Assembly: GCA_964624355.1 (NCBI GenBank)
Contig: CAZUXL010000002.1
Location: 37,485-101,484, forward strand
From: an uncultured Spirochaetales bacterium
Lineage (GTDB): Bacteria > Spirochaetota > Spirochaetia > JABEVK01
DNA: 64,000 nt
Direction of reading: 5' to 3'
A program made the position numbers and the translations under genes. Within the stretch, counting starts at the first letter, position 1. Every line of letters begins with the position of its first letter. The notes beneath the pieces were generated by a model. That model was not told where the DNA came from and searched no databases. It saw only the letters and a program-made list of their open reading frames with translations. Positions 7,413 to 53,412 of the stretch are shown piece after piece.

Positions 7413-7437
7413 TGGGTTTCCAGTGGTAATCCATGGG

Positions 7438-23518: not shown

Positions 23519-24683
23519 GTAGATTCAAAGTAATCACGGTCAATCCAGTATCCCGTACTTGATTGACCAAGGATTCAAAATGTACCCCAAGCTTGGAACA
23601 TTCTTCTGATAGGTAAGACAGGTAGTAAAGACCTAACTCCGCATTGGCCCCTGCTTCGTCGTTTCCGTCTTTGTAAAAATCCATCAAACTTTTTAGTTTT
23701 GTATTGGCACCCTTGGTGTCATCCACTGATTTTTTTAATTCCAGATATCCCGCTTCCTTATTGAAAACCCTCACGGAGAGTTTTTCCCGGCTCGCCAAGC
23801 CCTTGGTGGAGTCATTACCCACCTTCCAGGTCAAGAAAACGTTTTGGTTCCTATGGCTCATTTCTTCCACGATCATTTTCCGCATTTCCGGGTCGAACAT
23901 CACCGCATTGGGATCCAAAGTTCCCTTATACCGGGATTTGGCGAAACTTTGGATATTGGTATTTTCCGCATTAATTGCCAGTTCCATGATCATCAACGAC
24001 AGGTATTCCGCCAGCTTTGATTTTTCCATGTATTCGTGGAGGGCAATTTCAATCTGATTCAGGAGTTCCAAGTACTCATCGGAATCTTTGAACTGGGAAA
24101 GAACAAACCAAGTGAGGGGTCTGAGGTTATTGAGGAATTTTTCCGCTAAGAATAGCTGAATATTTTTTTCTTCAGGAAGTAGACTCTCGCTGGACATGAC
24201 CGTTTCCATGATGGGTCTGAGCATTTCCTGTTTGATGGACTGAATCAATACCTTATTTTTTATAAGGTTGTTGGAGAGAATCTCGGGTTTGACGCTGGTC
24301 TTTCTGTCAATGATCCCCGCAGGATTTCCCCGATTCCATTTTTTAATCAGATCCGAATCCATTATTTTGCCAAAAACGGTTTCGTCAAACCGCCGGTAAA
24401 AGGTTGCATAGGTGATGAGTTTGGAAAGATCCATGACTTCTTGGCGTTTGGACATGAATTCTGGTCGGGAGAGTTCTATATAGGAAACGTAGTTGATTAG
24501 CATGAGTTTCTGGACGGAAGCAGGGGAAAAAACGTCAAAAAAGATCCCGTATTGTTCCATATCATCTGCAAGTTTAAATTTGTTCAGTTTTTTCTTGCTC
24601 TGGATAAAAAAATTCACCCCTTCCTCGTTGAAGATGATTTTTACGGGAAGTTCCAGGTCTTTTCTTCTTTTGTCGTCAGCCAT
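23511..24683 (-). CDS. Hypothetical protein (390 aa), low-GC orphan
   Basis: Long ORF with no recognisable motif. Markedly more AT-rich than its flanks. Start is 8 nt after the nitroreductase stop. Confidence 0.5.
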   Translation of the reverse strand: MADDKRRKDLELPVKIIFNEEGVNFFIQSKKKLNKFKLADDMEQYGIFFDVFSPASVQKLMLINYVSYIELSRPEFMSKRQEVMDLSKLITYATFYRRFDETVFGKIMDSDLIKKWNRGNPAGIIDRKTSVKPEILSNNLIKNKVLIQSIKQEMLRPIMETVMSSESLLPEEKNIQLFLAEKFLNNLRPLTWFVLSQFKDSDEYLELLNQIEIALHEYMEKSKLAEYLSLMIMELAINAENTNIQSFAKSRYKGTLDPNAVMFDPEMRKMIVEEMSHRNQNVFLTWKVGNDSTKGLASREKLSVRVFNKEAGYLELKKSVDDTKGANTKLKSLMDFYKDGNDEAGANAELGLYYLSYLSEECSKLGVHFESLVNQVRDTGLTVITLNLLI

Positions 24684-41763: not shown

Positions 41764-42741
41764 ATGAACCCCTTTGACTACCTATCTCCCGATTTGGTGC
41801 TTAACTCTGTGGAGCAATCTTTCAACCTCATTTTAGACCCGCAAATCATCCCCTTTCCCTCCTATATCAACCGGGTTTACGGAATAAAAACCGATGAAGG
41901 ACAGGATCTGGTGGTGAAGTTTTATCGCCCCGGGCGATGGTCCCCCGAGGCTTTGGAGGAAGAGCAGAACTTCATATTTGATTGTCAGGAAGCGGAATTA
42001 CCGGTGATCGCTCCCTTGCCCGATCCAGAGGGATACACCTTGGGGGAAGTAGAATTGGGAATTCCTTCCGGTGAAACCCTGGTCTATAACTTCTCAGTAT
42101 TTGAAAAAAAAGCCGGCCGGGTTTTCGACGCCGAAGGAGACGGGGATTGGCTGCGTTTGGGCAGACTCTTGGGGCGGCTTCATGAAGTAGGGCGGCGAGA
42201 GAAATTCAATCACAGGATTAAAAACAGCCCTGGTCTCACGGAAAAACAAGTGTTGAAACTCCTACCCCTGGTTCACCCGGATGTGAAATCCGAGTGGGAG
42301 GATATTATTTTCACAAGCCTGGAGTTGGTTAAAGCATCATTTGAAGGACAATCATTCCATCGAATCCATGGAGATTGTCACCGAGGTAATATCTTAAACC
42401 GGGATCCTCAAGGTCTGCTGCTCATGGACTTTGACGATTGCCAGATGGGGCCGCCGGTGCAGGATCTGTGGCTGCTTCTCCCTGGAGCCCGGGAAGAGTG
42501 TCACCGGGAGACTGTTTTACTTTCTGAAGGGTACAGGGAGTTTTCCGATTCTGGGAAATTAAATTGGGATTTGGTGGAACCGTTGCGATTTATGCGCATG
42601 GTACATTTTCTCACCTGGTGCAGCAGTCAAAAGGAGGATAAAGGATTTGATCACCATTTTCCCGGATGGGGAACCCGATCCTTCTGGATCCGGGAAACAG
42701 AAGATTTTCGGGACCAACTACGCCGGCTTAACCCAGATTAA
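41764..42741 (+). CDS. SrkA/YihE(RdoA)-like protein kinase of the aminoglycoside-phosphotransferase fold
   Basis: Catalytic IHGDCHRGNIL and DFDD motifs. About 325 aa. Confidence 0.65.
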   Translation: MNPFDYLSPDLVLNSVEQSFNLILDPQIIPFPSYINRVYGIKTDEGQDLVVKFYRPGRWSPEALEEEQNFIFDCQEAELPVIAPLPDPEGYTLGEVELGIPSGETLVYNFSVFEKKAGRVFDAEGDGDWLRLGRLLGRLHEVGRREKFNHRIKNSPGLTEKQVLKLLPLVHPDVKSEWEDIIFTSLELVKASFEGQSFHRIHGDCHRGNILNRDPQGLLLMDFDDCQMGPPVQDLWLLLPGAREECHRETVLLSEGYREFSDSGKLNWDLVEPLRFMRMVHFLTWCSSQKEDKGFDHHFPGWGTRSFWIRETEDFRDQLRRLNPD

Positions 42742-43075
42742 CCCGGTCTCCTTTAGTATGGGGGGCTGAGATCAATAAAAATAAAAGATCTTCTACCCCA
42801 TCATTCCAAAGGCTGTGGAGCATCCCTGGGGGGATTTCCAATCCTTGGCCGGAACGTACCAGTTGTTTATCTTTTCCGATGATAAAAGAACCTTCACCGG
42901 AAAGGATGAAATAGAATTCCCTGGATTTCCGGTGGTAATGCTGAATCTCCCCCCGGGCAGGGGGTATTCTTTCATAATTGATACTCAGATCCGGACGTTC
43001 TAGAAATTTCCATCCCTCGCAGTCCCTTCCCCAGGTGAATAATTCCGCATTTGACAGGTCCATGGGTCCGAGCAT
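42728..43075 (-). CDS. Cupin-domain protein
   Basis: Cupin_2 motif G(x)5HxH...E...G (GEIQHYHRKSREFYFILSGEG). Confidence 0.6.
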   Translation of the reverse strand: MLGPMDLSNAELFTWGRDCEGWKFLERPDLSINYERIPPARGEIQHYHRKSREFYFILSGEGSFIIGKDKQLVRSGQGLEIPPGMLHSLWNDGVEDLLFLLISAPHTKGDRVNLG

Positions 43076-46000
43076 TAACGGGCTCCTAACTCAAGGATCA
43101 GTTCTACCTCTCCCATACTGAGCTTTGTCGCCCGGGAGATTTCTTCTTTGGACCAACCCTGATGGGACAATTTTACCACGGTTTGGCGCATATCCATGGC
43201 GGGCGCGCCTTTTACCTTACTGGCGGAAGCGGGACTGGCTTTCACCAGGGTTCCCAGCAGCTTCACCTGCTCTTCCGCCTCTTGGCTCACTTCCTGGAGT
43301 CTGGTTTCTGTCCTAGCCAGCCATTCTCTGGCCTGTTCCATTTTTTCTGTTCGCTTTTCTATATCCACCAGAAGGGTAGAGATACTCCTAAGATTTGAGA
43401 GGGCCGATTCCGATTCTTCCTTGCCCCCTGAAAGCTCCTTAAACCGCTTTTTCAGGTTTTCTACTTCTGCGGGCATGGATCCCAAATTACCAGAAAGATC
43501 TTTCACGGATTTTTCCATTTTTTCCAAAAGGGAGTAGTTCCTATCCACCGCATCGGAGGTGGTATCCAAAATGGTTCTCTTTTTTTCTAAACGATCAAAC
43601 CGGGTTTCCACATCTTTTTCATAATCTTCCAATTTTCGGATTTTAAGCTGGATTTCCTGGAGCATGTCGTGACTTTCGGTGATCTGTTTCAATCGTTCGT
43701 CCACGCTTTGCGATACCGCCAGAACCCGGGAGAAATCTGAATCCAACAGGTCGATTCGTTTTTTCTCCGCCATGAACCGGGCAAGCTTATCTGATATCTC
43801 GTCACTCATTTTTCGGATCCGGGACATCTGGGAGTCCATTTCCACCAGGTCTTTTTTCTGGAGGTCAACTTTAGCAAGGTCATTTTTAAGATCTTCGATG
43901 GACTCTTGTAGTTCCAACTTAAGAATATCCGCTCGTTCAAAAATTTTTGTCTGGGAAATAAATGATTTCTGATTCTTGTCAATTTCTTCCAAGGTGACCA
44001 CGGGAAGATTAAAATGATCTTCAATCTTTCCAAAGAGTTTCTTCTGAAGGGCTTCTGCCTTATCTTTTGTTTCCTGGGCGGCGGAGCGGAATTCTTTCAG
44101 CCGTTGATCCAAGTCACCGGTCATCTCCCGGGTTTTTTTCTGGAAGTCCACAGTGAAGCTGTCATAATCCCTTCGGAAGGTTTCCAAAGCCGCTTCAGAG
44201 CGCTTGCTCACATCCACTTCCAATTGATTTACCGATTCTTTGAGGAGGGAAATTTCATTTTTAAGCAGGACTCGTTCCTCATTGGTGGAGAGCAGCAGGT
44301 CCTCCTTCTGCTTGGAAAAGTCTTCTTTTACAGCGGTGATTTTTTCATTGATCCCGGATTTAAAGTTTTGGTATTGGTCCAGAAGTTCGTTCTCGGTTTC
44401 TTTTACTTTCTGGGAAAATCGAGTCTGCCAAATGGTAATATCCGATTCTGCAGCGTTAACCGAGGCCTGAAGCTGCCCTTGAACCCCTTCCAGTCTTTCG
44501 GAGAATCCCTTGAGTTTTCCATCCATTTCTCTCTCGAGTTTGGTCAGGGATTCTTTTAGTTGCAGTTCGTGCTTTCCGATTTCCTGTTCCAATTTTGCCA
44601 GGGACGCTCTCTCCATGGTTCCCATTTCATCCCGAAGTGTTTTTCCGGAGTCCTCCAAACGGTTTGTGAGGGTAACCAAACTCTCCTCGACCCGGGATTG
44701 GTGGCTACGGATCTGGAGGTCCAAACGTTCGGAATTCTGGGCAGCTAAGGTTTGAAGAAAAACTTGTTTTTCCTCGAGAAGGCTAGTGAAGGATTTTTCC
44801 AAGTCCTGTCTCTTGGTTTCCGATTCTACTGCCAAATCTTTCAGACGGGTTTGCATGGTCAGATGCCATTCATCGAAGGTCCGGGACATGGAAGCGTTTC
44901 GTTTTTGGAGATCTGCAAAAAAATCATCCTCAAAAACCTGGAGTTTTTCACTCACATTGTCATAAGCCTTGGCCTTAAGATCTTCCAATTCCTTTTCCAG
45001 CGCTCCTAAGGAGGTGGATAGGGCGGTGAAATTCCCCAGAAGTTCTTGGTGTTCTTGGGTTTGAAGAACCTTCATCCGGGATTCAAAGGCTTCCAGATCC
45101 ATTTTTACCCTGGTTCCTGCTTGCGCCATTTCACTGCGGAGGTGGGCTTCCAATTGGGAGACCTCACCTTCGAAGGATTCTAGAGAAGTCAAACGGTACT
45201 GAAAAGATTTTTCTTGGTCGGCGATTTTACCATCAACCCGGGCAAGGAAGGCCTCACCCGAGGCTTCTGCGGTTTTTTGGAGGTCACTAAACCGGGTTTC
45301 CAAGGCTTCCATATCCGATTGAAGATCCTTGTGGAGGTCACGGGCGTCTTCTTTTAAAGCGTCCTGGGCAGATTTAAGGTTTTGAATTCCTGCATTCACA
45401 TCTTTTGCTGCGGTTTGAAGATTTACACCCCAGGCGGTGGCGGAGGTTTTTATTTGTTCCTGAATTTTTACCGTAAGTTTTTGTAGCAGGTCTGTATTGA
45501 ATTTTTCCGCATGGACGGCGGTATCTTCCAAGCGTTTATGGAAGGCTTTCTCTGCCCCTGACCACTCCTGTTCAAATTGCCGGCTCTTTTGCTGAAGATG
45601 TTCTTCCAGTCCTTTCATCTGAATTTGATTTTTATCCAAAGCCCGAGCTAGGAGTTCCTGAAGTTGTTTTTGACTCTCGGTCATGAAAACTTGCTTCCTA
45701 TCCTCCAAACCATCTATAAACTTTCGGTAGGCTTCAGTTTTATCCCCCGCCTCCAGAGCCTTTCTTTCCACCAGTTCCGTTTCCCTGGCGACTAGGCTCT
45801 TATACTGGTCAAGAATATGTCCCAAGGTCGCAGCATTGTCCTGGTGAAATCGGGCTTGAAGTTCGGGAAGGGATCCTTCAATTTCCTGAATTTGCTCCGC
45901 TGCTAACTTGATCCTCCGGCCTACTTTGTCCACAAATTCACTCTCGTCCTTAAGGCGGGATAAATTTTCATCCACCTGGTTGGATAGGGTGTACAGCCCA

Positions 46001-46329
46001 TCGATCCTGGTTCCATAATCTTCAATGCGACCTTTGAGAGTTTCCAGTTCTGGTGCTTTCCCGGCCAGTTCTTCTTCCACTGTTTTGATTCGTTTGATGA
46101 TTTCTTTTCCGGTTTTCTGATGAACTTCCAACTCCACAGTGAAATCTTTTATTTCCTGGGTTCTCAGTTCGATAAATCCTTCCAAGTCAGCCCTGACGGT
46201 ATCGGCATACTTTCGGATTTTATCCAGAGATCGGTTATTTTTATCCATTTGGCGGTAAATAAGCAGTACTATGCCCACCACTCCTAATATAAGGAGGTTA
46301 GAGAGATTGAAGACGTCCATTTTGCCCAC
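43075..46329 (-). CDS. Giant (1084 aa) membrane-anchored coiled-coil protein with a C-terminal HTH-like tail
   Basis: Single N-terminal TM helix. About 1000 aa of heptad-rich Glu/Lys/Leu/Gln sequence. C-terminus SHQGWSKEEISRATKLSMGEVELILEL resembles a sigma-70 region-4 / LuxR-type HTH. Confidence 0.55.
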   Translation of the reverse strand: MGKMDVFNLSNLLILGVVGIVLLIYRQMDKNNRSLDKIRKYADTVRADLEGFIELRTQEIKDFTVELEVHQKTGKEIIKRIKTVEEELAGKAPELETLKGRIEDYGTRIDGLYTLSNQVDENLSRLKDESEFVDKVGRRIKLAAEQIQEIEGSLPELQARFHQDNAATLGHILDQYKSLVARETELVERKALEAGDKTEAYRKFIDGLEDRKQVFMTESQKQLQELLARALDKNQIQMKGLEEHLQQKSRQFEQEWSGAEKAFHKRLEDTAVHAEKFNTDLLQKLTVKIQEQIKTSATAWGVNLQTAAKDVNAGIQNLKSAQDALKEDARDLHKDLQSDMEALETRFSDLQKTAEASGEAFLARVDGKIADQEKSFQYRLTSLESFEGEVSQLEAHLRSEMAQAGTRVKMDLEAFESRMKVLQTQEHQELLGNFTALSTSLGALEKELEDLKAKAYDNVSEKLQVFEDDFFADLQKRNASMSRTFDEWHLTMQTRLKDLAVESETKRQDLEKSFTSLLEEKQVFLQTLAAQNSERLDLQIRSHQSRVEESLVTLTNRLEDSGKTLRDEMGTMERASLAKLEQEIGKHELQLKESLTKLEREMDGKLKGFSERLEGVQGQLQASVNAAESDITIWQTRFSQKVKETENELLDQYQNFKSGINEKITAVKEDFSKQKEDLLLSTNEERVLLKNEISLLKESVNQLEVDVSKRSEAALETFRRDYDSFTVDFQKKTREMTGDLDQRLKEFRSAAQETKDKAEALQKKLFGKIEDHFNLPVVTLEEIDKNQKSFISQTKIFERADILKLELQESIEDLKNDLAKVDLQKKDLVEMDSQMSRIRKMSDEISDKLARFMAEKKRIDLLDSDFSRVLAVSQSVDERLKQITESHDMLQEIQLKIRKLEDYEKDVETRFDRLEKKRTILDTTSDAVDRNYSLLEKMEKSVKDLSGNLGSMPAEVENLKKRFKELSGGKEESESALSNLRSISTLLVDIEKRTEKMEQAREWLARTETRLQEVSQEAEEQVKLLGTLVKASPASASKVKGAPAMDMRQTVVKLSHQGWSKEEISRATKLSMGEVELILELGAR

Positions 46330-46366: not shown

Positions 46367-47026
46367 TCAGCTTTTGGCGAGACAGCGGAAGATATAATTT
46401 TCCAATTCTTCATAATTCTTGAAAGAAAAGTCCGCCAAGCTGTCAGACGGAGGGCGTGATGTCAGGTGAGCGGCTAAAAAGCCCGCTCTTTTTGCACCGA
46501 GGATATCATAACGATAGGAATTCCCCACATAGAGAATCTTGGAAGGTTCGCATCCCAGCTCTAGTGCCAGGCGGTGGAAGGCTTCAGGCCTGGGTTTCAG
46601 GGCACCGGTTTCTTCACTGGAAAAGACCGTAGTCCAATAACCATCCAACCCCATATCCCTCAACCGGTTCCGAATGGGGAAGTCGGACATGACTGCAAGT
46701 TTCAACCCTGCGGTCTTCAGTCTTCCCAGGGTTTCCGCCAAACCGGGAAAGGGCTTGACCTTGGTGAAGAGTTTAAACCACTGTTTGTATATTTTTTGTT
46801 CGATCAAAGCGTAGGCCCGTCCAGGATTAATACCCAAAATCCGTCCGACTTTTTCTGCCTGCATCCGGTTAAATTCCAACACCGGCCCTTGATTTCTCAG
46901 CTCAATTCTAGCTTTTTCTAAAGCCAGGAGTAGCCTTGCATGGGTTAAAACGAAGGGGATAGACCGGAGGTTCATGAATAACTCCGGGTAGAGGGTACCA
47001 TCTAGATCAAGGGCCACTGCTTTCAA
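46367..47026 (-). CDS. HAD-superfamily hydrolase (subfamily IA)
   Basis: Motif I ALDLDGTLY. Motif IV VGNSYRYDILGAKRAG. Confidence 0.75.
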   Translation of the reverse strand: MKAVALDLDGTLYPELFMNLRSIPFVLTHARLLLALEKARIELRNQGPVLEFNRMQAEKVGRILGINPGRAYALIEQKIYKQWFKLFTKVKPFPGLAETLGRLKTAGLKLAVMSDFPIRNRLRDMGLDGYWTTVFSSEETGALKPRPEAFHRLALELGCEPSKILYVGNSYRYDILGAKRAGFLAAHLTSRPPSDSLADFSFKNYEELENYIFRCLAKS

Positions 47027-47054
47027 TAATTAACCTTATGAATAAAACTTTATT

Positions 47055-47897
47055 CTACTTTGATAAAATGGTGAAAATAACTCGTCCGTGAATGTCCTGA
47101 CCATTGGTTTGAAATGTCCAATTTCTCAAAGCTTTTTCCACGGAAACCCGTAGAAGTCTCCATTCCTCCGATGTTTCAGGAGTTTTGGCTATATTGCCGG
47201 AAATACCTTTCAAAATCAAGGTTTGAGGATCTAATTTTATTAATCCGCCGGAACCGATGACAAATCTTACTTCCAATTCGCCAGTGGCTGTACCCTGGGG
47301 AACTACAGGGGGGATCAAAGGCAGCGGACGGGCGTTTATAACCCCCTCTTCAAGCTCCACCGGATTTCCCGAACCGGCTTCAAATTTTCGTTTACCCTCG
47401 GTGGGAGCCCGCCCTGAATCCCTGGAAAGCAAGTCGTTCAGGGCTTCCAAGTTTTCCAGCCCCTCCAACTTCTCGGGGGTCTGTACTTGGTTTGACGATG
47501 AGGCGGCCTGGAGTCCAGTGTCTTGAGGCCGTGGAGCCGGAGGTTTCGGCGTTTCGTATATATCGGTAGAAGGGCGGGTACTTTCAGAAACTTTTTCAGG
47601 TGGGATTGGTGAATCATTCTTCATTTGGGGTGTTTGGGGGAGCGCCGGCGCTGGAGCGGGGGAGGAGGACGCCGGAACCGTCTTGGTAGGGGGGGGAATC
47701 ACAGCCGCAGGGGTTTTCTTTTCCCCCGCCAAGTTATCCAAACCCGTACCCAATTCCACCCGAATGGCCCCCATGGGTATCCTTTCTTCTTTGGATTCCA
47801 GTGGTATCAACAATAGGAGAAGGAGTAGAAAGATATGAAGCCCCCCCCCCACTCCCAGAGCCCTGGTTAAACGGTTTCGGTCGGCAAGTTCCATCAT
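47055..47897 (-). CDS. tonB: TonB-family energy transducer
   Basis: N-terminal TM. Long Pro/Ala-rich spacer (PAPAPALPQTPQ...). C-terminal TonB_C-like domain. Overlaps exbD. Confidence 0.6.
   Translation of the reverse strand: MMELADRNRLTRALGVGGGLHIFLLLLLLLIPLESKEERIPMGAIRVELGTGLDNLAGEKKTPAAVIPPPTKTVPASSSPAPAPALPQTPQMKNDSPIPPEKVSESTRPSTDIYETPKPPAPRPQDTGLQAASSSNQVQTPEKLEGLENLEALNDLLSRDSGRAPTEGKRKFEAGSGNPVELEEGVINARPLPLIPPVVPQGTATGELEVRFVIGSGGLIKLDPQTLILKGISGNIAKTPETSEEWRLLRVSVEKALRNWTFQTNGQDIHGRVIFTILSK
47841..47850. repeat. C10 (coding-strand G10) homopolymer tract inside tonB (codons GVGGGL)
   Basis: Ten consecutive C on the plus strand. Seen directly. Confidence 0.9.
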
Positions 47898-48307
47898 TTA
47901 CCTCCGGGAACCCGGGTTTTTAGATTTATGGATTGGAAACCTGCGATTCTCAAGGCGTCCAAAACCTCTATCATCAGGGCGTAGCTCACACCTTCATCCC
48001 CCAGGACCATCACGGATTTGATCTCCCGGCGCTCCTGTTCTGAGTAGGCGGAAAGGCGAAGGGATAGGCTTTCCAAACTGTGGAGTTCCTGGTTCAGATA
48101 AATATTGTATTTATCTTTCACCGATACGGTCAGGGTCGTCACCGTGGTTTGTTCTGCGGTTTGAGAAGTGGGTAAGAGCATAGTAATGGCCGGAGCCACA
48201 TTGAAGGTGGTGGAGACCATAAAAAAGAAGAGGATGGTGATGGACACATCGATCATGGGAACCAAATCCACCGAACTTTTCGTCGATAACCGTCTCCTGA
48301 AGGTCAT
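47894..48307 (-). CDS. exbD: ExbD/TolR biopolymer transport protein
   Basis: N-terminal VDLVPMIDVSITILFFFMV TM and an ExbD fold. 137 aa. Confidence 0.85.
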   Translation of the reverse strand: MTFRRRLSTKSSVDLVPMIDVSITILFFFMVSTTFNVAPAITMLLPTSQTAEQTTVTTLTVSVKDKYNIYLNQELHSLESLSLRLSAYSEQERREIKSVMVLGDEGVSYALMIEVLDALRIAGFQSINLKTRVPGGK

Positions 48308-48936
48308 TGGGTTCCTCCCTGGGGACGCCGGGCTTTATCCAGGTAGAGCACCAGTTCATTCACCCTATTTTCCAACCGGATGATGGAATGATTGACTTTG
48401 TTGGTGAGGTAATTATAAAAAATAGTCGCAGGCACGGCGACGATGATACCCGCTGCGGTGGTGATCAAAGCTGTCCCAATTCCCCCAGCCAAGGCCGCGG
48501 GGTCACCCACACCTGCCAGTTGATTCAGCACATTGAAGGCCATAATGATTCCCTGTACCGTACCAAAGAGTCCTAAAAGCGGAGCAATGGTGGAAATAGT
48601 ACCCAGTGTAGTGATGTACTGTTCCATTTTTGGAATCTCTTGGTTAGCGGTGTCCATGACCATATCTCTAACCACGGAAACCGGCTGGTCCCTGAGGGAA
48701 ATTCCCACCTTCATCAAGTTGGTAATGGGGGATGGTTGGGCGTCGCAGATGGCCAAGGCCTCCTCATAATGGCCCTTTTCCATGGTGGATTTGAGCCGGG
48801 AAAGCAGGAGGTCTTCATTCACCCTGTTTTTCCGGAAATACATGAACCTTTCCACCACGATTGTGAGGGAAACCAATGAGAGGAACAAAAGAACATACAT
48901 CACCGGTCCACCGGAAATAAAAATCTGTATCATCAT
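48304..48936 (-). CDS. exbB: ExbB/TolQ/MotA-family proton channel
   Basis: Three TM helices. Conserved LGLFGTVQGIIMAF segment. Confidence 0.85.
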   Translation of the reverse strand: MMIQIFISGGPVMYVLLFLSLVSLTIVVERFMYFRKNRVNEDLLLSRLKSTMEKGHYEEALAICDAQPSPITNLMKVGISLRDQPVSVVRDMVMDTANQEIPKMEQYITTLGTISTIAPLLGLFGTVQGIIMAFNVLNQLAGVGDPAALAGGIGTALITTAAGIIVAVPATIFYNYLTNKVNHSIIRLENRVNELVLYLDKARRPQGGTQ

Positions 48937-48943
48937 AAACTCC

Positions 48944-50560
48944 TTAAAGATTCAATTGACCTGAAACATAAAAACGTAATCCCGGTTCTTGGTAGGGGCT
49001 GCCGGTTTCGAATCGACCCCGGGGCATGAATAGGCTGGTCCAATCTTCCACCCCCGCTTTAATGGTAACCAATGGGCTGGGGAGAAGCTGGAATCCCAAA
49101 TCACCCCGGGGAACCTCCCAACCAGATGTATAGGAAAGGGAAATTATATGGTTTAAACGCCAGTTTGACTCCAACGGACTAATTACGGTATTCCAAGAGT
49201 ACTTTTGATCCGGTGTGGAGTAAGTAGAATTAACTTCCCGTCCCCAACGGGCTTCCCAAAAGAGCTCATTTTTCCAAAGATCAAAAAGTAGGTAATGTGC
49301 TTTGATTTCCGTGGTCCACCGGTGCCCCTCCTCAAGAGTCAGGTTTTCTAATCCTGTTAGATTATTCCAGCCTTGATTTTCATAAAGCCATCCGCCCTGG
49401 TATTGAACTTTTATTTCTGAAGACCCCAGGGTTGAAAATTTCCAGTTCAGAGAAGTCTGTCCATGGGCGGAAGCCTCTGGGAGAAGAGGGATGTTTAATG
49501 GGGATCGGATTCGGGCTATCCAGAGGTTTTTAAACCGGGAGTGGAGGAAGCCTCCTTCAATTTTCCATACCCAAGTTTCGTTTTGCCAGGTGATTTTTGA
49601 TTGGGCTGGGAAGAGGAAACTTTGTTCTTCAAATTGGGCCCCGAGGGACCCGGAAAGTGCCCATCCGCTCCCCGGGTAAAGTTTCCATCCCAAGGAAAGA
49701 TCACCCGATCCAATGGTCCAGGGGGATTGAATCTGGGAAACAAAGGACCAAATCTCCCCACTTCCCTCCAGGGTTAGTTCTCCCAGGTCCCCCAGAATCC
49801 AAAGGATGCCAGGTGAAAAGGAACCCCCACCTGCAGTGGCACTGGTGGGAATGGAACCCGCTAACACTTTCTGATCGTATTGAACCCGGCCTTGGGTCAG
49901 GAAAAACCAATCTTTTGCCAAGGGAAGGCGATATTCCCCGGAGATCCAGGCTTCCCGGCTTTCGGAGGAATGATAATCCTGTGCAAGGCGTTGGAGTCCT
50001 TGACTTACCTCCACAAGCCCCAGGTTTAAGCCCCAGGAGCGGGTGGGATCCTGGGAAATATCAAAGTTCATTTTAGTTTCCCGGGAGGAAAATCCATTAC
50101 CGGGGGTATGAAATCCTTGTCCGCTCCAAAAGGAATCCAGGGTGTTATGATTAAAATTGAGACGGAAGGGCAGCACTTTTCCTATGCGCATGAGTTCCAC
50201 ATCCAGTCCAAACCGGTAGGGGATACCTAAAGTGAGACCGAGGGAGGTAAGAAGATTCCAATCCGGCGGGAGGGCTGGTGAGCCGGAGGGAAGCAAGGCG
50301 GCGGGGGAATCTAGAAGATCTTCCAGGGTCGGATATTGTAAAGGGTTAGGGGCGGGGAGGGTGTAGGTGGCATCGGGGAGAGCCACATCCCATTCCGCAG
50401 TCCACAAACCGGAGAGCACCGGACCTTCCTTATCCTGAACCTCCAATATCATACTGGGAAGTACTAATTCAGTGTCTATTTGAGCTTCAGGACTTTGGGC
50501 TGAAATCCCGGATAAGCCAGCTAAAAGAAAAAAAACAATGGCTGTATTTTTAAGTATCAA
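48944..50560 (-). CDS. Hypothetical secreted / outer-membrane protein (538 aa) encoded with the ExbBD-TonB genes
   Basis: Signal peptide. Trp/Gly/Ser-rich beta-like composition. No recognisable family. Confidence 0.45.
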   Translation of the reverse strand: MILKNTAIVFFLLAGLSGISAQSPEAQIDTELVLPSMILEVQDKEGPVLSGLWTAEWDVALPDATYTLPAPNPLQYPTLEDLLDSPAALLPSGSPALPPDWNLLTSLGLTLGIPYRFGLDVELMRIGKVLPFRLNFNHNTLDSFWSGQGFHTPGNGFSSRETKMNFDISQDPTRSWGLNLGLVEVSQGLQRLAQDYHSSESREAWISGEYRLPLAKDWFFLTQGRVQYDQKVLAGSIPTSATAGGGSFSPGILWILGDLGELTLEGSGEIWSFVSQIQSPWTIGSGDLSLGWKLYPGSGWALSGSLGAQFEEQSFLFPAQSKITWQNETWVWKIEGGFLHSRFKNLWIARIRSPLNIPLLPEASAHGQTSLNWKFSTLGSSEIKVQYQGGWLYENQGWNNLTGLENLTLEEGHRWTTEIKAHYLLFDLWKNELFWEARWGREVNSTYSTPDQKYSWNTVISPLESNWRLNHIISLSYTSGWEVPRGDLGFQLLPSPLVTIKAGVEDWTSLFMPRGRFETGSPYQEPGLRFYVSGQLNL

Positions 50561-53412
50561 GGTTTGGCCTCCAGGAGTTCCTGGGCTTTCACCACCCAGT
50601 CTGAATCAGGAAAATTGGCCGCCAAAGCTGTGAGAATTTGTCGTCCTTGAGAAGGATTTTTAGTCAAAACCGTCATCTGTATGGCTTTGTAAAGGCTGGA
50701 TGCCGTGAGGTCCCTATCTGTGGATCTGTAGGAAAGGACTTTTAAAAAGGCCTCTCCCGCAGTTTTATACTGACTGCGCCTGAACCAGTATTCCCCAATC
50801 CAGTATTGGGCGGAGGCCGAGGCTTGAGTATCTCCCTTGGTTTGCACTTGATCCAAGAGAATTTTTCCCTCTTCCTGTTTTCCTTGCAATAAATAGTATC
50901 GAGCTAAGGCTACTTGAGCTTGACGTCCTTCAGGGGTTGAAAGGTCTACCAAAGCTTTGAGTTTACTTTCCGTTTCGCTGGCCCCTTCTTGAATTAATCG
51001 TACTTCTTGGAGCCTCCGGTCCAGATTATAGGTCGCTGCTGTGCCAGGGTCTTCTTGTTTAAGTCTTGTCCACAGTTCTTTGGCAAGGGAATAATCCCCG
51101 GTGGTAAAGTAGAGTTGTCCTGTTTCAAATAGGGCGATTCCCCGGAAGGGACTGGATTTGTGGTTTTCTATGAGTTCCATCCAAGCCAGTACCGCTCCGT
51201 AGGGTTGTCCCAGGGCTAATTGGGCCGCAGCACTTTGATGGAGAACTCTGTCTTTACCGGAACCTTTGGGGTAATGGCTGCGATATTGGACGGCAGCTGA
51301 CACGGTCCTAGCCCAATCTTTGGAATCAAAGGCCGATTCCACAATTTTACCCAATGACTCTTCTCCCTGGGGAGAGAGGGGGAATCGGTTTTCGGTCTCC
51401 TGGAGGAGTTCCAGATATCCCGGAAGGTCATTTTGTGTTTTTTTCAGAAGGGCGGCTTCCAAAAGGGCCTGGGCACTCCAAAGTCCTGGTGGTCTGGCTC
51501 TTCCCAGGTCCAAGTAGGCTTGTAATGCAAGATTATGCTTACTCTGAGCCTCCAGGCATCGGGCCAGATATAAAGGGGCTTGGAGTGATTCTTGGGATTT
51601 ACCGCTGGACATGAGCTGACGGAATAAGGTCTCGGCTTCGGTCCATTTTTTTAAACTCATGGCGGTCCAACCGCCCCAGTATAGGGCTTTCTCAATAAAT
51701 TCGCTTTTTGGAAATTCTTTCACCAGGGTAGAAAAATAGGAGAAAGCCTTACCGGTATCGGAATTTTCCAACTTGAACGCTGACCACCCAGCGTAGTAAT
51801 AAATGTAGGGTAGAAGTTCTGATCGTTTGGGAAAATCGGAAATCTTTAAAAGATCCTCCAGGGTACTCAAAGCCCTGGTGAAGTTTTTTTGACCAATGAG
51901 TGCCAGGGACCGCAAATATCGATTTTGAGGGTAGATTCCAGGATTGCGTGTTTTTAAATCTGGAGCTGCTTTATCCCAAGAGTCCAGAAGATTAAGGGCT
52001 TCCCGCGAATCTTGTTTTTGGAGAGCCATGGAAATGCTGGCAATTTGAATGCTCGGGTTGCTGGGATCCAAGAGAAGAAGGGTCTTCCTAGTTTCCTCAG
52101 CCTGGGGTTTCAATTGAAGGGTGTTTTCTAATTGCCCTTGAAGGCTAAGCCATGGGAGCAGAAGGTTTTTTTCCTTGGGTTTTAAGGTGGGATCCAAGAG
52201 ATCTAAGGCTGCTCTCGGTTGTCCCATTTTTGCCAGGGCGTACGCTCGGAAAAAAGCCCTGTTGCTTGCTTGAATCCCTTGGGTGGGGGCAAGGAGACTA
52301 TAATACTTCAAGGCCTCGGGGTAATTTTCCACCTTTAGACTCAGAGAAGCCATTTTTTCCAGGAGTAAGTCCTGAGGTTCTTGCTTTCTGGCTAGAAGGC
52401 TGGCGGTCAATTCTAAAGCCTTAACCCCCTGGGAGGATTTTTCCAATTCCGCAACCAGGTAAAGTCCCCCTAGACCTGCGGCGGAATTGGAATCAATTGA
52501 GACCGATTCTTCCAGTAGTTTTAAAGCTTCTGGAAGGCGGCCGGTTTGATAATAAAGAATCCCTAAACGGGTTTGGAGTTCCGCCAAGAGACCCGGTTGG
52601 TTTTGGAGCCTTAATTTTGCCCCTGCCAGAATTCTACCCAATTCCTGGGTTTTTTTTTCCGTTTCATAATACTGAAAAAGTCTAATGTAGGCAGAAACGG
52701 TGAGGCTTCCAGTGCCTAAAATCAAACCGTTCCAAAGCTCAGCGGCCCCAGGTTTATTTCCCAGAGTCCAGAAGGCTTCCGCTTTTTCCCATATCAACCG
52801 TTGTTTTGAGTCTTCCGGCCAGGTTTCAGCGACTTCCAAGGTGGGAATAAGTACCTGTCGACCGGTACGGTTATATATTTGTGCCAAGAGAAGTTGGGGC
52901 TGGGGAGATTCTAAATATGACCTTCCCTTTTGTATCTTGAAGGTTTCCAAGGCCGATAGAGCCGTCTCCCACTGTCCCGCTAAGGCCCTGGCTCTTCCCA
53001 GATGGTACCAGAAATCGGCTCCAATCTCCGCAGAAAAAGAAGTGAGTTTTTCTAACCCTGCTAATGCAAGGTCGAGTTTTTTTGATTCCAAAAGCAGGTA
53101 GGATTTCCAGAATTGGGCTTGCACATTATTGAGTTGGGGATACCGTAGGAGAGCGGCCTCTAAAGTGCGTCCTGCCTCTTCATTACGACTTAACCGGATC
53201 AATCCGAGGGTGTTTTTCCATGCGGCGGAAGGCGCCAGTGGAGACATGGGATTTTGGGAAAGGAGATTTTGATACCGTTCCAAGGCCGCATCGATCCGGC
53301 CCTCCTGCCAAAGGCGCTCGCCTTGGAGGAAAATTTCTTGGTCGGTCACTTGGGCATGTAAGAAACTACCCCAGGAGACACTCAAAAGAAAAAGTATGAA
53401 CAATTTTTTCAT
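50557..53412 (-). CDS. Large secreted TPR-repeat protein (951 aa)
   Basis: Signal peptide. Repeated 34-residue W-LG-Y / A-F-P TPR-like units throughout. 4 nt overlap with the downstream OMP gene. Confidence 0.75.
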   Translation of the reverse strand: MKKLFILFLLSVSWGSFLHAQVTDQEIFLQGERLWQEGRIDAALERYQNLLSQNPMSPLAPSAAWKNTLGLIRLSRNEEAGRTLEAALLRYPQLNNVQAQFWKSYLLLESKKLDLALAGLEKLTSFSAEIGADFWYHLGRARALAGQWETALSALETFKIQKGRSYLESPQPQLLLAQIYNRTGRQVLIPTLEVAETWPEDSKQRLIWEKAEAFWTLGNKPGAAELWNGLILGTGSLTVSAYIRLFQYYETEKKTQELGRILAGAKLRLQNQPGLLAELQTRLGILYYQTGRLPEALKLLEESVSIDSNSAAGLGGLYLVAELEKSSQGVKALELTASLLARKQEPQDLLLEKMASLSLKVENYPEALKYYSLLAPTQGIQASNRAFFRAYALAKMGQPRAALDLLDPTLKPKEKNLLLPWLSLQGQLENTLQLKPQAEETRKTLLLLDPSNPSIQIASISMALQKQDSREALNLLDSWDKAAPDLKTRNPGIYPQNRYLRSLALIGQKNFTRALSTLEDLLKISDFPKRSELLPYIYYYAGWSAFKLENSDTGKAFSYFSTLVKEFPKSEFIEKALYWGGWTAMSLKKWTEAETLFRQLMSSGKSQESLQAPLYLARCLEAQSKHNLALQAYLDLGRARPPGLWSAQALLEAALLKKTQNDLPGYLELLQETENRFPLSPQGEESLGKIVESAFDSKDWARTVSAAVQYRSHYPKGSGKDRVLHQSAAAQLALGQPYGAVLAWMELIENHKSSPFRGIALFETGQLYFTTGDYSLAKELWTRLKQEDPGTAATYNLDRRLQEVRLIQEGASETESKLKALVDLSTPEGRQAQVALARYYLLQGKQEEGKILLDQVQTKGDTQASASAQYWIGEYWFRRSQYKTAGEAFLKVLSYRSTDRDLTASSLYKAIQMTVLTKNPSQGRQILTALAANFPDSDWVVKAQELLEAKP

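What the first reader, a model, noticed from the sequence alone, without database searches (positions are those of the whole stretch)
43075..46329. 1084 aa membrane-anchored coiled-coil protein ending in a sigma-region-4-like HTH
The architecture is a single N-terminal TM helix, then about 1000 residues of near-continuous coiled coil, then a C-terminal roughly 30 aa segment (SHQGWSKEEISRATKLSMGEVELILEL) that resembles the DNA-binding HTH of sigma-70 region 4 / LuxR-type proteins. A membrane-tethered filament with a DNA- or RNA-polymerase-facing tail is unusual. It could be a chromosome or nucleoid tether, a cytoskeletal scaffold, or an anti-sigma-like anchor. The gene is flanked by a cupin gene and a HAD hydrolase gene, which gives no functional context. 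Several long antisense ORFs inside it are low-complexity artefacts.
Basis: partly seen in the sequence, partly recalled or inferred. Interest (0 to 1): 0.5.

Follow-up and report, generated by a model that had tools for sequence, protein, structure and literature searches.

The report
Giant spirochaete SwrB/FipA-tailed membrane rod
This gene encodes a very long, membrane-anchored helical rod found across spirochaetes, and its small end domain matches the one that two known flagellum-assembly proteins (SwrB of Bacillus, FipA of Vibrio) use to dock partner proteins, so it more likely helps build or place flagella than binds DNA.

Summary
The ORF is real (43075-46329, minus strand). The maximal ORF is 1084 codons, but the CDS most likely starts at the ATG at 46320 (1081 aa).

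It is a catalogued but unstudied family, NCBIfam "SpiroCoCo family coiled-coil protein". Both domain models score far above cut-off, and relatives occur in at least 559 species genomes; the 80 best loci returned are all Spirochaetota.

- One N-terminal TM helix, predicted N-out/C-in.
- About 1000 residues that are roughly 90% helical.
- A 40-residue three-helix tail with an HTH fold.

Two corrections:
- Only the rod ends (aa 50-125 and 755-1030) have heptad periodicity. The central ~600 aa have 3.6-3.67 periodicity, like apolipoproteins, and look internally repeated.
- The tail is not sigma-70 region 4 or LuxR by sequence. Its best matches are Pfam DUF6115, which I show is B. subtilis SwrB, and DUF2802 (FipA, the FlhF partner).

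Three profile-profile comparisons agree in one register. SpiroCoCo G1058/E1074/L1077 align with SwrB G136/E152/L155 and FipA G110/E126/L129, which include the residues needed for SwrB or FipA function. Helix 3 carries net charge -3, so DNA binding is unlikely.

The gene is the last of a conserved TPR/ExbB/ExbD/TonB-like/HAD block, not a flagellar operon. The flagellar role is therefore inferred (confidence about 0.45).

The parts
43075..46329 (-). Maximal ORF (1084 codons, GTG start). The probable CDS is 43075-46320 (1081 aa, from the ATG at codon 4).
   Evidence: NCBIfam SpiroCoCo_N 194.5 bits and SpiroCoCo_C 332 bits.
46255..46314 (-). N-terminal transmembrane helix (aa 6-25), predicted N-out/C-in. 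It carries conserved F7, G10 and a polar N/D11.
   Evidence: KD19 = 2.49 and it is the only such window. The family averages about 0 K/R before the helix and 5.2 K/R in the 15 residues after it. N/D11 is present in 44 of 50 sequences.
46207..46257 (-). Nearly invariant cytoplasmic juxtamembrane motif YRQ(L/M)D(K/R)NNRSL(E/D)K(V/I)(R/K)(R/K)Y (aa 25-41).
   Evidence: One of the two most conserved 20-aa blocks of the protein (3.57 bits; the tail block 1061-1080 scores 3.59). Per-column counts.
45955..46182 (-). N-proximal heptad coiled-coil zone (aa 50-125). It lies inside the SpiroCoCo_N / LA_3659 model match (aa 12-199).
   Evidence: Periodicity 3.44-3.51.
44095..45942 (-). Central variable zone (aa 130-745) with 3.6-3.69 (11/3-like) amphipathic periodicity. 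It contains four long helices (121-273, 282-457, 467-649, 657-773) that resemble each other.
   Evidence: for periodicity. for helices (pLDDT 70-82 in parts); hhalign A-B 94%, B-C 95.5%, B-D 93.6%. Sub-threshold Pfam Apolipoprotein match (27.6 bits against 90). Lowest conservation and most indels in the protein.
44890..45009 (-). Conserved island inside the variable zone (aa 441-480, ...LKAKAYDNVSEKLQVFEDDFFADL...).
   Evidence: 3.07 bits per column against about 1.5 in the flanking sequence. Invariant L451, K452, V459, L463, E467, F470, L474.
43240..44067 (-). C-proximal heptad coiled-coil zone (aa 755-1030), inside SpiroCoCo_C (aa 779-1079). It includes the invariant AREWLARTETRL motif (aa 1000-1011).
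   Evidence: Periodicity 3.42-3.48.
43195..43245 (-). Flexible Gly/Ala/Pro/Ser/Lys-rich linker (aa 1029-1045).
   Evidence: pLDDT below 50 in both models. Length varies in the alignment.
43087..43194 (-). C-terminal three-helix SwrB/FipA-type (DUF6115/DUF2802) domain (aa 1046-1081), with G1058, E1074 and L1077.
   Evidence: Pfam DUF6115 30.4 bits (cut-off 27) and DUF2802 20.9 bits. hhalign to SwrB P=2e-6 and to FipA P=1e-5. Reciprocal HMM searches. Models.
46367..47026 (-). HAD-family hydrolase gene, 37 nt upstream. It is the conserved immediate neighbour.
   Evidence: Pfam Hydrolase 75.6 bits. At position -1 on the same strand in 45 of 78 loci, median gap 51 nt.
47055..47897 (-). 280-aa protein with an N-terminal TM and a Pro-rich region. 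It looks TonB/TolA-like but has no Pfam hit.
   Evidence: Sequence. A gene of 347 aa without Pfam hit occupies the same position in L081.
47894..48936 (-). ExbD/TolR-like gene (47894-48307) and MotA/TolQ/ExbB-like gene (48304-48936), overlapping by 4 nt.
   Evidence: Pfam ExbD 88.5 bits and MotA_ExbB 109.4 bits. Conserved at positions -3 and -4 in 28 and 35 loci.
48944..53412 (-). 538-aa secreted protein of unknown family (48944-50560) and a 951-aa TPR protein (50557-53412). Together they head the conserved block.
   Evidence: Conserved at positions -5 and -6 in 37 and 38 loci. Same order in L081.
42728..43075 (-). Cupin gene whose start overlaps the SpiroCoCo stop by 1 nt. This neighbour is not conserved.
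   Evidence: In other loci the downstream gene is grpE-dnaK-dnaJ (26-37 loci) or a convergent ispF.

Best explanation
The protein is a giant, spirochaete-specific version of the 'TM + HTH' flagellum-associated membrane proteins typified by SwrB (Bacillus) and FipA/FlrD (gamma-proteobacteria).

Shown here:
- A single N-terminal helix, predicted to insert N-out/C-in, would put the whole rod in the cytoplasm.
- A nearly invariant juxtamembrane motif follows the TM helix.
- The rod has heptad coiled-coil zones at both ends and a length-variable, internally repeated central section with 11/3-type periodicity.
- A flexible linker presents a 40-residue three-helix domain homologous to the C-terminal domains of SwrB and FipA.

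Inferred:
- The tail is a protein-docking module, not a DNA binder.
- It captures a cytoplasmic or membrane-proximal flagellar assembly factor. Candidates are FlhF (as FipA does) or a basal-body or export-gate component (FliO, FliF-FliG), which have been proposed but not shown as targets of SwrB and reported for FlgW.
- The membrane anchor and rod fix where, and how far from the membrane, that factor is held. This would help set the number and subpolar or mid-cell placement of periplasmic flagella.
- The conserved operon partners (ExbB/ExbD/TonB-like, TPR) hint that the anchor sits next to a Tol/Exb-type envelope machine.
For: Tail family assignment:
- The isolated tail passes Pfam's gathering score for DUF6115 (30.4 and 27.7 bits against 27). 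DUF2802 is the next best family, E=4e-4.
- PF19610 is precomputed on many family members.
- DUF6115 is the SwrB family: B. subtilis SwrB (P0277) carries PF19610. DUF2802 is FipA.

Profile-profile comparisons:
- SpiroCoCo tails against SwrB: 89%, P=2e-6. Against FipA: 82%, P=1e-5. SwrB against FipA: 90%, P=1.7e-6.
- All three share one register, giving G1058/E1074/L1077 = SwrB G136/E152/L155 = FipA G110/E126/L129.
- FipA G110A and L129A abolish FlhF binding. SwrB L155P is a loss-of-function allele.

Reciprocal specificity:
- An HMM built only from Bacillaceae SwrB tails ranks all 78 SpiroCoCo ORFs above 931 other ORFs. 60 score E<=1e-3, and the best other ORF scores 0.91.
- It picks this ORF as the top hit of the six-frame window, E=2.8e-4.

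Shared architecture and topology:
- All three families have the TM at the extreme N-terminus, about 0 K/R before it and 3-5 K/R after it, and the domain at the extreme C-terminus.
- N-out/C-in topology was shown experimentally for SwrB and FipA.

Literature:
- Flagellar superoperons carry a 'TM + HTH' gene.
- C. jejuni FlgW, reported as a distant SwrB relative, binds FliO, and its mutant loses polar flagella.
- In B. burgdorferi, FlhF and FlhG place flagella at the poles and mid-cell. I found no described membrane landmark for FlhF in spirochaetes.
Against: - The gene is not in a flagellar operon here or in any of 78 related loci. Its conserved partners are TPR, ExbB, ExbD, a TonB-like protein and a HAD hydrolase. 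swrB and fipA, by contrast, sit at the end of flagellar operons.
- No flagellar gene turned up among the 20 larger window ORFs scanned with Pfam. The rest of the window was not scanned.
- Homology is limited to about 40 residues of a simple fold, and the hhalign probabilities are 82-90%, not above 95%.
- The window protein's own tail is weaker than the family consensus: SwrB HMM E=3.5e-4, FipA HMM not significant.
- N-terminal homology to SwrB is not supported (P=0.11), and to FipA it is marginal.
- The full-length protein misses the DUF6115 cut-off (20 bits against 27).
- No interaction or phenotype data exist for any family member.
- I could not test whether spirochaetes also carry a short TM+HTH gene in their flagellar operons. 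If they do, this protein would be a paralogue with a different job.
Confidence: 0.45

Rival explanations
1. It is an envelope or division-site scaffold that works with the co-encoded Tol/Exb-type system (TPR, secreted 538-aa protein, ExbB, ExbD, TonB/TolA-like, HAD) and has nothing to do with flagella. In this reading the SwrB/FipA-type tail is simply a reusable docking module with a different partner.
For: - The same-strand, tightly spaced block is conserved in 28-45 of 78 loci, and SpiroCoCo is always its last gene.
- In the window the gaps are 37, 28, -4, -4, 7 and -4 nt.
- The TM helix carries a conserved polar N/D and is followed by an invariant juxtamembrane motif, which fits an intramembrane or membrane-proximal partner.
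Against: - Gene order alone does not show a physical link.
- Both experimentally studied families that share the tail domain (SwrB, FipA) are flagellar, as is FlgW, which is only reported to be a distant SwrB relative.
- The residues conserved across the three families are the ones needed for SwrB or FipA function.
Confidence: 0.25
2. It is a generic cytoplasmic cytoskeletal or membrane-shaping filament, like crescentin, CfpA or Scc, or an apolipoprotein-like protein lying on the inner leaflet. It would contribute to spirochaete cell shape, with the tail serving only for self-assembly.
For: - About 90% helix, heptad zones, and a 600-aa central zone with 3.6-3.67 amphipathic periodicity.
- Sub-threshold Apolipoprotein, ApoLp-III and crescentin-rod matches.
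- The family is restricted to a phylum defined by its cell shape.
Against: - The most conserved parts are the two termini, not the rod. That points to specific partners at each end.
- In FipA, self-interaction does not need the residues equivalent to G1058 and L1077.
- No membership of any filament family reaches its cut-off: Rod_CreS scores 16 bits against 100.
Confidence: 0.12
3. The tail is a DNA-binding (sigma-70 region 4 / LuxR-like) HTH, making the protein a membrane-to-nucleoid tether, or it acts as an anti-sigma-like anchor.
For: - The tail model has an HTH fold with close superpositions on sigma region 4, NarL/RcsB, Pax and transposase HTHs.
- It has 39-41% local identity to the Pax paired sub-domain.
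- Scc, an unrelated Leptospira coiled-coil protein, binds nucleic acids. This is from my own knowledge and was not tested here.
Against: - No Sigma70_r4 or GerE match, and generic HTH families stay below cut-off.
- The PDB profile search gave no significant match to a DNA-binding HTH domain.
- Helix 3 is E-V-E-L-I-L-E with net charge -3 and no conserved basic or polar DNA-contact residues.
- In FipA, one of the two homologous domains, the published role is a protein contact; SwrB's target is unknown.
Confidence: 0.06

Closest known systems
SwrB (B. subtilis swarming motility protein; Pfam DUF6115/PF19610)
   Same: - Single TM at the extreme N-terminus, predicted N-out/C-in as shown experimentally for SwrB.
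- Cytoplasmic helical region of low conservation.
- C-terminal three-helix domain, aligned in register (P=2e-6); SwrB L155 corresponds to L1077.
- The isolated tail passes the DUF6115 gathering score.
   Different: - SwrB is 150-180 aa; this protein is 1081 aa, with about 950 extra helical residues.
- swrB is the last gene of the fla/che operon; this gene is the last of a TPR/ExbB/ExbD/TonB-like/HAD block.
- SwrB's critical TM His13 and junction residues L48/F51/L53 have no demonstrable counterpart (N-terminal hhalign P=0.11).
FipA / FlrD (VP2224; Pfam DUF2802), the membrane partner that recruits FlhF to the pole in Vibrio, Pseudomonas and Shewanella
   Same: - TM, then coiled coil, then C-terminal domain, all cytoplasmic.
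- The G/E/L triad sits at identical spacing (G110/E126/L129 = G1058/E1074/L1077).
- hhalign P=1e-5.
   Different: - The DUF2802 gathering score is not reached (20.9 bits against 33.5).
- fipA sits next to the flhAFG-fliA-che operon.
- FipA is 120-175 aa.
- The FipA paper states that homologues are absent from spirochaetes and Bacillus.
- FlhF binding is untested for this protein.
FlgW (C. jejuni CJJ81176_0198) and the 'TM + HTH' gene of flagellar superoperons
   Same: FlgW is reported to be a distant SwrB relative that binds FliO and is needed for flagella at both poles. The 'TM + HTH' architecture class is described.
   Different: I had no FlgW sequence in hand, so the relationship was not tested. 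Those genes are short and lie in flagellar operons.
Polar landmark coiled-coil membrane proteins (Caulobacter TipN, Vibrio HubP); analogy only
   Same: These are membrane-anchored, coiled-coil-rich proteins that mark poles or division sites and direct flagellar placement. TipN positioning depends on Tol-Pal. This is from my own knowledge and was not tested here.
   Different: No sequence relationship was detected. The localisation of SpiroCoCo is unknown.
Sigma-70 region 4 / LuxR-type HTH
   Different: No sequence-family match. The third helix is acidic, and the domain sits at the end of a membrane-anchored rod.

Membership tests
NCBIfam SpiroCoCo family coiled-coil protein (NF047514 N-domain, NF047515 C-domain) | Scores above the curated cut-offs of both domain models | tested here: met
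   SpiroCoCo_N scores 194.5 bits (cut-off 75) over aa 12-199. SpiroCoCo_C scores 332 bits (cut-off 125) over aa 779-1079.
NCBIfam SpiroCoCo family coiled-coil protein | Found in Spirochaetota, full length about 1000-1400 aa with conserved termini | tested here: met
   120 homologues of 948-1456 aa were listed. At least 559 species genomes matched, and the top 80 are all Spirochaetota. Termini are the most conserved parts.
Pfam DUF6115 (SwrB family) | Pfam gathering score (27 bits) | tested here: inconclusive
   The full-length protein scores 20 bits, below the cut-off. The isolated tail scores 30.4 and 27.7 bits, above it. hhalign gives 89%, P=2e-6 over 40 columns.
Pfam DUF6115 (SwrB family) | N-terminal single TM, N-out/C-in, with a cytoplasmic C-terminal domain | tested here: met
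   Positive-inside analysis gives the same pattern in 119 SpiroCoCo, 112 SwrB and 107 FipA sequences. This is a prediction only for SpiroCoCo.
Pfam DUF6115 (SwrB family) | Small protein (about 130-180 aa) encoded at the end of the flagellar (fla/che) operon | tested here: not met
   The protein is 1081 aa. Its neighbours are HAD, TonB-like, ExbD, ExbB and TPR genes in the window and in 78 loci.
Pfam DUF6115 (SwrB family) | Functionally critical TM His13 and junction residues L48/F51/L53 | tested here: not met
   There is no His in the TM helix. N-terminal profile comparison gives P=0.11.
Pfam DUF2802 (FipA/FlrD) | Pfam gathering score (33.5 bits) | tested here: not met
   20.9 bits, E=4e-4. 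hhalign gives 82%, P=1e-5.
Pfam DUF2802 (FipA/FlrD) | Invariant G...E..L triad of the domain (VpFipA G110, E126, L129) | tested here: met
   G1058, E1074 and L1077 sit at identical spacing. E and L are invariant and G is at least 90% conserved in the family.
Pfam DUF2802 (FipA/FlrD) | Direct binding to FlhF and co-occurrence with flhF/flhG | not testable with these tools
   No multimer prediction or whole-genome access was available. flhF is not in the window.
Sigma-70 region 4 / LuxR (GerE) HTH | Sequence match to Sigma70_r4, Sigma70_r4_2 or GerE | tested here: not met
   None of these is listed at E<=10 for the tail. The PDB profile search found no sigma factor or LuxR protein at E<=10.
Sigma-70 region 4 / LuxR (GerE) HTH | Three-helix HTH fold | tested here: met
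Sigma-70 region 4 / LuxR (GerE) HTH | Basic or polar DNA-contacting recognition helix | tested here: not met
   Helix 3 is GEVELILEL with mean net charge -2.97, and the domain's net charge is -0.45.
SMC / 'chromosome segregation ATPase' (the JGI name given to relatives) | Full-length SMC model score; ATPase head domains | tested here: not met
   TIGR02168 scores 41 bits against a cut-off of 567, matching coiled coil only. No SMC head domain appears in Pfam.
Apolipoprotein A1/A4/E | Pfam gathering score (90 bits) | tested here: not met
   27.6 bits. Only the 11/3-type periodicity is shared.

The most novel reading that the evidence does not exclude
SpiroCoCo is a membrane landmark for spirochaete flagellation; I found none described for FlhF in spirochaetes. 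Its TM helix and invariant juxtamembrane motif would dock onto the co-encoded ExbB/ExbD/TonB-like (Tol-type) envelope machine at division sites and new poles. Its ~1000-residue rod would act as a spacer or ruler. Its SwrB/FipA-type tail would recruit FlhF or the export gate. Cell division would thereby be coupled to the subpolar placement of periplasmic flagella, making it a functional analogue of TipN/Tol-Pal or HubP/FipA built into one polypeptide.
Probability: 0.12. Interest if true: 0.8.

Novelty: new variant of a known kind. Interest (0 to 1): 0.55.

Why it matters
Spirochaetes place their periplasmic flagella at fixed subpolar positions and build new ones at mid-cell before division. FlhF and FlhG are known to be involved, but I found no description of a membrane landmark that positions FlhF in spirochaetes.

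The paper that defined FipA states that spirochaetes and Bacillus lack homologues, and the SwrB authors call SwrB narrowly distributed and without homologues of known function. The comparisons here link SwrB, FipA and a phylum-wide giant spirochaete protein through one C-terminal domain whose conserved residues include those needed for SwrB or FipA function.

That gives two things:
- A concrete, testable candidate: delete the gene, or mutate G1058 or L1077, in T. denticola, Leptospira or Borrelia.
- A natural experiment on what a ~1000-residue spacer adds to a TM+HTH assembly factor.

If the flagellar link is wrong, the finding is still a conserved, unstudied last gene of a spirochaete Tol/Exb-like operon.

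Tried and rejected
- Literature searches for 'SpiroCoCo', 'LA_3659' and 'DUF6115' found no papers. Locus-tag guesses (BB0512, BB0520, TP0214, TDE0625/0626) gave nothing on function. The only relevant result is that TDE0626, the gene upstream of grpE in T. denticola, is not co-transcribed with grpE-dnaK-dnaJ; its orthology to this gene is unverified.
- An exact-protein contig look-up for P0001 found no record.
- A single-sequence scan of species genomes found no close relative. The alignment-based scan worked.
- A 35-aa FipA fragment rebuilt from published mutagenic primers was too short to search. The padded version returned only partial Vibrio proteins. I used those to seed the exhaustive profile search that returned 149 candidates, mostly FipA-family proteins of 120-175 aa.
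- The afdb50 fold library was unavailable.
- N-terminal homology to SwrB was rejected (P=0.11). N-terminal homology to FipA was judged to be driven by the TM and coiled coil (49%).
- The promoter and terminator scan was no better than shuffled sequence.
- The SMC/Rad50 and 'chromosome segregation ATPase' labels were rejected as coiled-coil cross-hits.
- The supplements of the FlgV paper hold nothing on TM+HTH.
- The grpE-dnaK-dnaJ adjacency (26-37 loci) was judged to be synteny rather than an operon. It is absent here and in L081, and gaps are mostly around 100-190 nt.
- I could not see the coordinates of the full-length model, so the packing of the central helices is unknown.

Full report
OBSERVATION

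The ORF 43075-46329 (minus strand) is present with 1084 codons from a GTG. The ATG at codon 4 (46320) is the likelier start:
- A GGGAG lies 8 nt upstream of it.
- 38 of 50 aligned homologues begin one aligned position later, at position 5.
- The identical public protein (OHD13550.1, hypothetical protein of the MAG 'Spirochaetes bacterium GWB1_48_6') is 1081 aa.

There is one hydrophobic segment only: the Kyte-Doolittle 19-residue mean is 2.49 at aa 6-24, and no other window exceeds 1.6. The composition is L/E/K-rich with six prolines. The flanks are a cupin and a HAD hydrolase. Five S/F/L-rich antisense ORFs of 81-181 aa lie inside the gene.

WHAT FAMILY IT IS

NCBIfam already names it 'SpiroCoCo family coiled-coil protein'. 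The C-domain model scores 332 bits (cut-off 125, aa 779-1079). The N-domain model, which matches identically to the 'LA_3659 family' model, scores 194.5 bits (aa 12-199). No paper in the library mentions the name.

Full-length relatives of 948-1456 aa are abundant. The tail motif is encoded in at least 559 species genomes, and all 80 best loci are Spirochaetota, including Marispirochaeta, Sediminispirochaeta, Treponema/Treponemataceae and Breznakiellaceae. JGI's label 'chromosome segregation ATPase' is a coiled-coil cross-hit: the SMC model scores 41 bits against a cut-off of 567.

ANATOMY

Conservation is concentrated at the ends:
- The N-terminus reads M-x-F-[ST]-x-G-[ND], followed by a hydrophobic helix and then the almost invariant YRQLD[KR]NNRSLEKV[RK][RK]Y.
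- The C-terminus reads AREWLARTETRL ... linker ... R..V.KLAHQGW..EIA..TKLSRGEVELILEL.

Family-averaged hydrophobic periodicity divides the rod into three zones:
- aa 50-125: 3.44-3.51 (heptad).
- aa 130-745: 3.6-3.69. This is 11/3-like, and goes with the sub-threshold Apolipoprotein matches.
- aa 755-1030: 3.42-3.48 (heptad).

The full-length AlphaFold2 model is about 90% helix but of low confidence (pLDDT 63.6). It shows long helices at 121-273, 282-457, 467-649 and 657-773. These resemble each other in profile comparisons (89-95.5% for four of the six pairs, 71-75% for the other two). That suggests internal duplication, with the caveat that coiled-coil composition inflates such scores. 'Near-continuous coiled coil' is therefore only partly right.

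THE TAIL

Modelled with 28 homologues, the last 100 residues form three parts:
- a long helix;
- a disordered linker (pLDDT below 50);
- three short helices (pLDDT 80-90).

By sequence the answer differs. Against all of Pfam, the tail's best family is DUF6115 (30.4 bits, above the 27-bit gathering score) and the second is DUF2802 (E=4e-4). Generic HTH families stay below cut-off, and Sigma70_r4 and GerE do not appear. A profile search of PDB sequences found no DNA-binding HTH domain at a significant E-value; its one hit below 0.001 (8vd6_A, 'CAP repeat') had no single stretch that passes on its own.

IDENTIFYING THE TWO DUFS

DUF2802 is FipA/FlrD, the membrane partner that binds FlhF and recruits it to the pole. 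It has a TM helix at aa 6-28, a cytoplasmic coiled coil, and then DUF2802. G110A and L129A abolish FlhF binding, and the TM helix is essential.

I rebuilt the relevant VpFipA stretch from the published mutagenic primers, confirmed it against database fragments, and collected 149 candidate sequences, mostly FipA-family proteins of 120-175 aa, with an exhaustive profile search.

For DUF6115 I tested a recalled B. subtilis SwrB sequence. It is 99% identical to database SwrB, which carries PF19610. SwrB is the last gene of the fla/che operon. It is a single-pass N-out/C-in protein needed for basal bodies to proceed to hook assembly, and L155P is a (conditional) loss-of-function allele.

HOMOLOGY TESTS

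Profile-profile comparisons gave:
- SpiroCoCo tails against SwrB: 89%, P=2e-6.
- SpiroCoCo tails against FipA: 82%, P=1e-5.
- SwrB against FipA: 90%, P=1.7e-6.

All three fall in one register, so that G1058/E1074/L1077 = SwrB G136/E152/L155 = FipA G110/E126/L129.

Reciprocal searches confirm the link:
- An HMM made only from Bacillaceae SwrB tails ranks all 78 SpiroCoCo ORFs above the 931 other ORFs of the fetched loci. 60 score E<=1e-3, and the best other ORF scores 0.91.
- A FipA-tail HMM finds 77 of 78.
- In the six-frame window, the SwrB-tail HMM's top hit is this ORF, E=2.8e-4.

The window protein's own tail is weaker than the family consensus, and its FipA HMM score is not significant.

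All three families share the same layout: the TM at the extreme N-terminus, about 0 K/R before it, 3-5 K/R after it, and the domain at the extreme C-terminus. Homology of the N-terminal regions is not supported: P=0.11 against SwrB, and 49% against FipA, which is probably driven by the TM and coiled coil.

IS IT A DNA BINDER?

This is unlikely. Helix 3 is the invariant E-V-E-L-I-L-E with mean net charge -2.97, and the domain as a whole is neutral to acidic. In FipA the homologous domain mediates a protein contact; for SwrB no direct partner is known.

CONTEXT

In 78 related loci the gene is the last of a same-strand block:
- a TPR protein (38 loci);
- a secreted protein of about 550 aa with no known family (37 loci);
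- MotA/TolQ/ExbB (35 loci);
- ExbD/TolR (28 loci);
- a divergent Pro-rich TonB/TolA-like protein;
- a HAD hydrolase (45 loci, median gap 51 nt).

In the window the gaps are 37, 28, -4, -4, 7 and -4 nt. The downstream side varies. It is grpE-dnaK-dnaJ in many loci, the cupin here, and a convergent ispF in L081.

No flagellar gene belongs to the conserved block, and none turned up among the 20 larger window ORFs scanned with Pfam. This is the main evidence against a flagellar role.

MECHANISM

Shown:
- An N-terminally anchored helical rod, predicted to lie in the cytoplasm.
- A constrained membrane-proximal motif.
- A flexibly linked SwrB/FipA-type terminal domain.

Inferred:
- The tail docks a flagellar assembly factor, either FlhF or an export-gate or basal-body component.
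- The anchor and rod determine where that factor is held.

Supporting literature:
- Flagellar superoperons carry a 'TM + HTH' gene.
- C. jejuni FlgW, reported as a distant SwrB relative, binds FliO and is needed for polar flagella.
- In B. burgdorferi, FlhF and FlhG position flagella at the poles and mid-cell. I found no described membrane landmark for FlhF in spirochaetes.

I put this explanation at about 0.45. The rivals are a Tol/Exb-associated envelope or division scaffold (0.25), a generic cytoskeletal or membrane-lining filament (0.12), and a DNA tether (0.06).

NOVELTY

The family is catalogued but unstudied. The link to SwrB and FipA is not in the literature I could search, and the FipA paper states that spirochaetes and Bacillus lack homologues. 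I file it as a new, giant, differently encoded variant of the TM+HTH flagellar-associated kind. It is not a member of DUF6115 or DUF2802 in the strict sense, because defining features (size, operon, and the full-length or DUF2802 cut-offs) are not met.

Noticed in passing
P0277 (B. subtilis SwrB) against alignment A3 (FipA family); not in the window: SwrB (DUF6115) and FipA (DUF2802) share their C-terminal three-helix domain in register (hhalign 90%, P=1.7e-6), with SwrB L155 (L155P, loss of function) matching FipA L129 (L129A, loss of FlhF binding). The FipA paper says Bacillus lacks homologues, and the SwrB authors say SwrB has no homologue of known function.
   Followed up: partly
window 46367-53412 (minus strand): A tightly packed putative operon of TPR protein (951 aa), secreted 538-aa protein with no Pfam hit, ExbB/TolQ-like, ExbD/TolR-like, Pro-rich TonB/TolA-like (no Pfam hit) and HAD hydrolase. 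It is conserved in order and strand across many spirochaete loci and may be a spirochaete Tol/Exb-type system.
   Followed up: partly
window 46320-46329: The mechanical ORF starts at GTG 46329. The ATG at 46320 has a GGGAG 8 nt upstream and matches both the homologue N-termini and the public 1081-aa annotation.
   Followed up: yes
window 44095-45942 (aa 130-745): The central zone has 3.6-3.69 hydrophobic periodicity (hendecad or apolipoprotein-like) instead of heptads. It consists of four mutually similar long helices. A sharply conserved island sits at aa 441-480 (LKAKAYDNVSEKLQVFEDDFFADL).
   Followed up: partly
window 46255-46314 (aa 6-25); SwrB TM in P0277: The SpiroCoCo TM helix carries a conserved polar N/D at position 11 (44 of 50 sequences). 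SwrB's TM has S9-x3-H13, which resembles the S-x3-H of the TonB/TolA 'SHLS' motif that contacts ExbB/TolQ (from my own knowledge). This is intriguing because the gene follows ExbB/ExbD genes.
   Followed up: no
window 5433-8724 and 15530-17626: A cluster of signalling genes: a hybrid histidine kinase with a receiver domain, a receiver-GGDEF protein, and a HAMP-GGDEF-EAL protein (c-di-GMP turnover).
   Followed up: no
window 25287-27494 (+) and 23511-24683 (-): Large ORFs of 735 aa and 390 aa with no Pfam family at E<=1e-5.
   Followed up: no
window 17667-19379 (-): A 570-aa protein with a D12-class N6-adenine DNA methyltransferase domain. It is unusually long for a stand-alone Dam-type enzyme.
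   Followed up: no
PMC13640089 (literature): C. jejuni FlhF is reported to bind TonB2 directly. This is a possible precedent for cross-talk between FlhF and TonB-type systems, given that this FipA-like-tailed protein is encoded next to ExbB/ExbD/TonB-like genes.
   Followed up: no
window 44001-46000: Strong AT skew (-0.22) on the plus strand, reflecting the purine-rich (GAA/AAG) coding strand of the rod. It goes with the S/F/L-rich antisense ORFs.
   Followed up: yes
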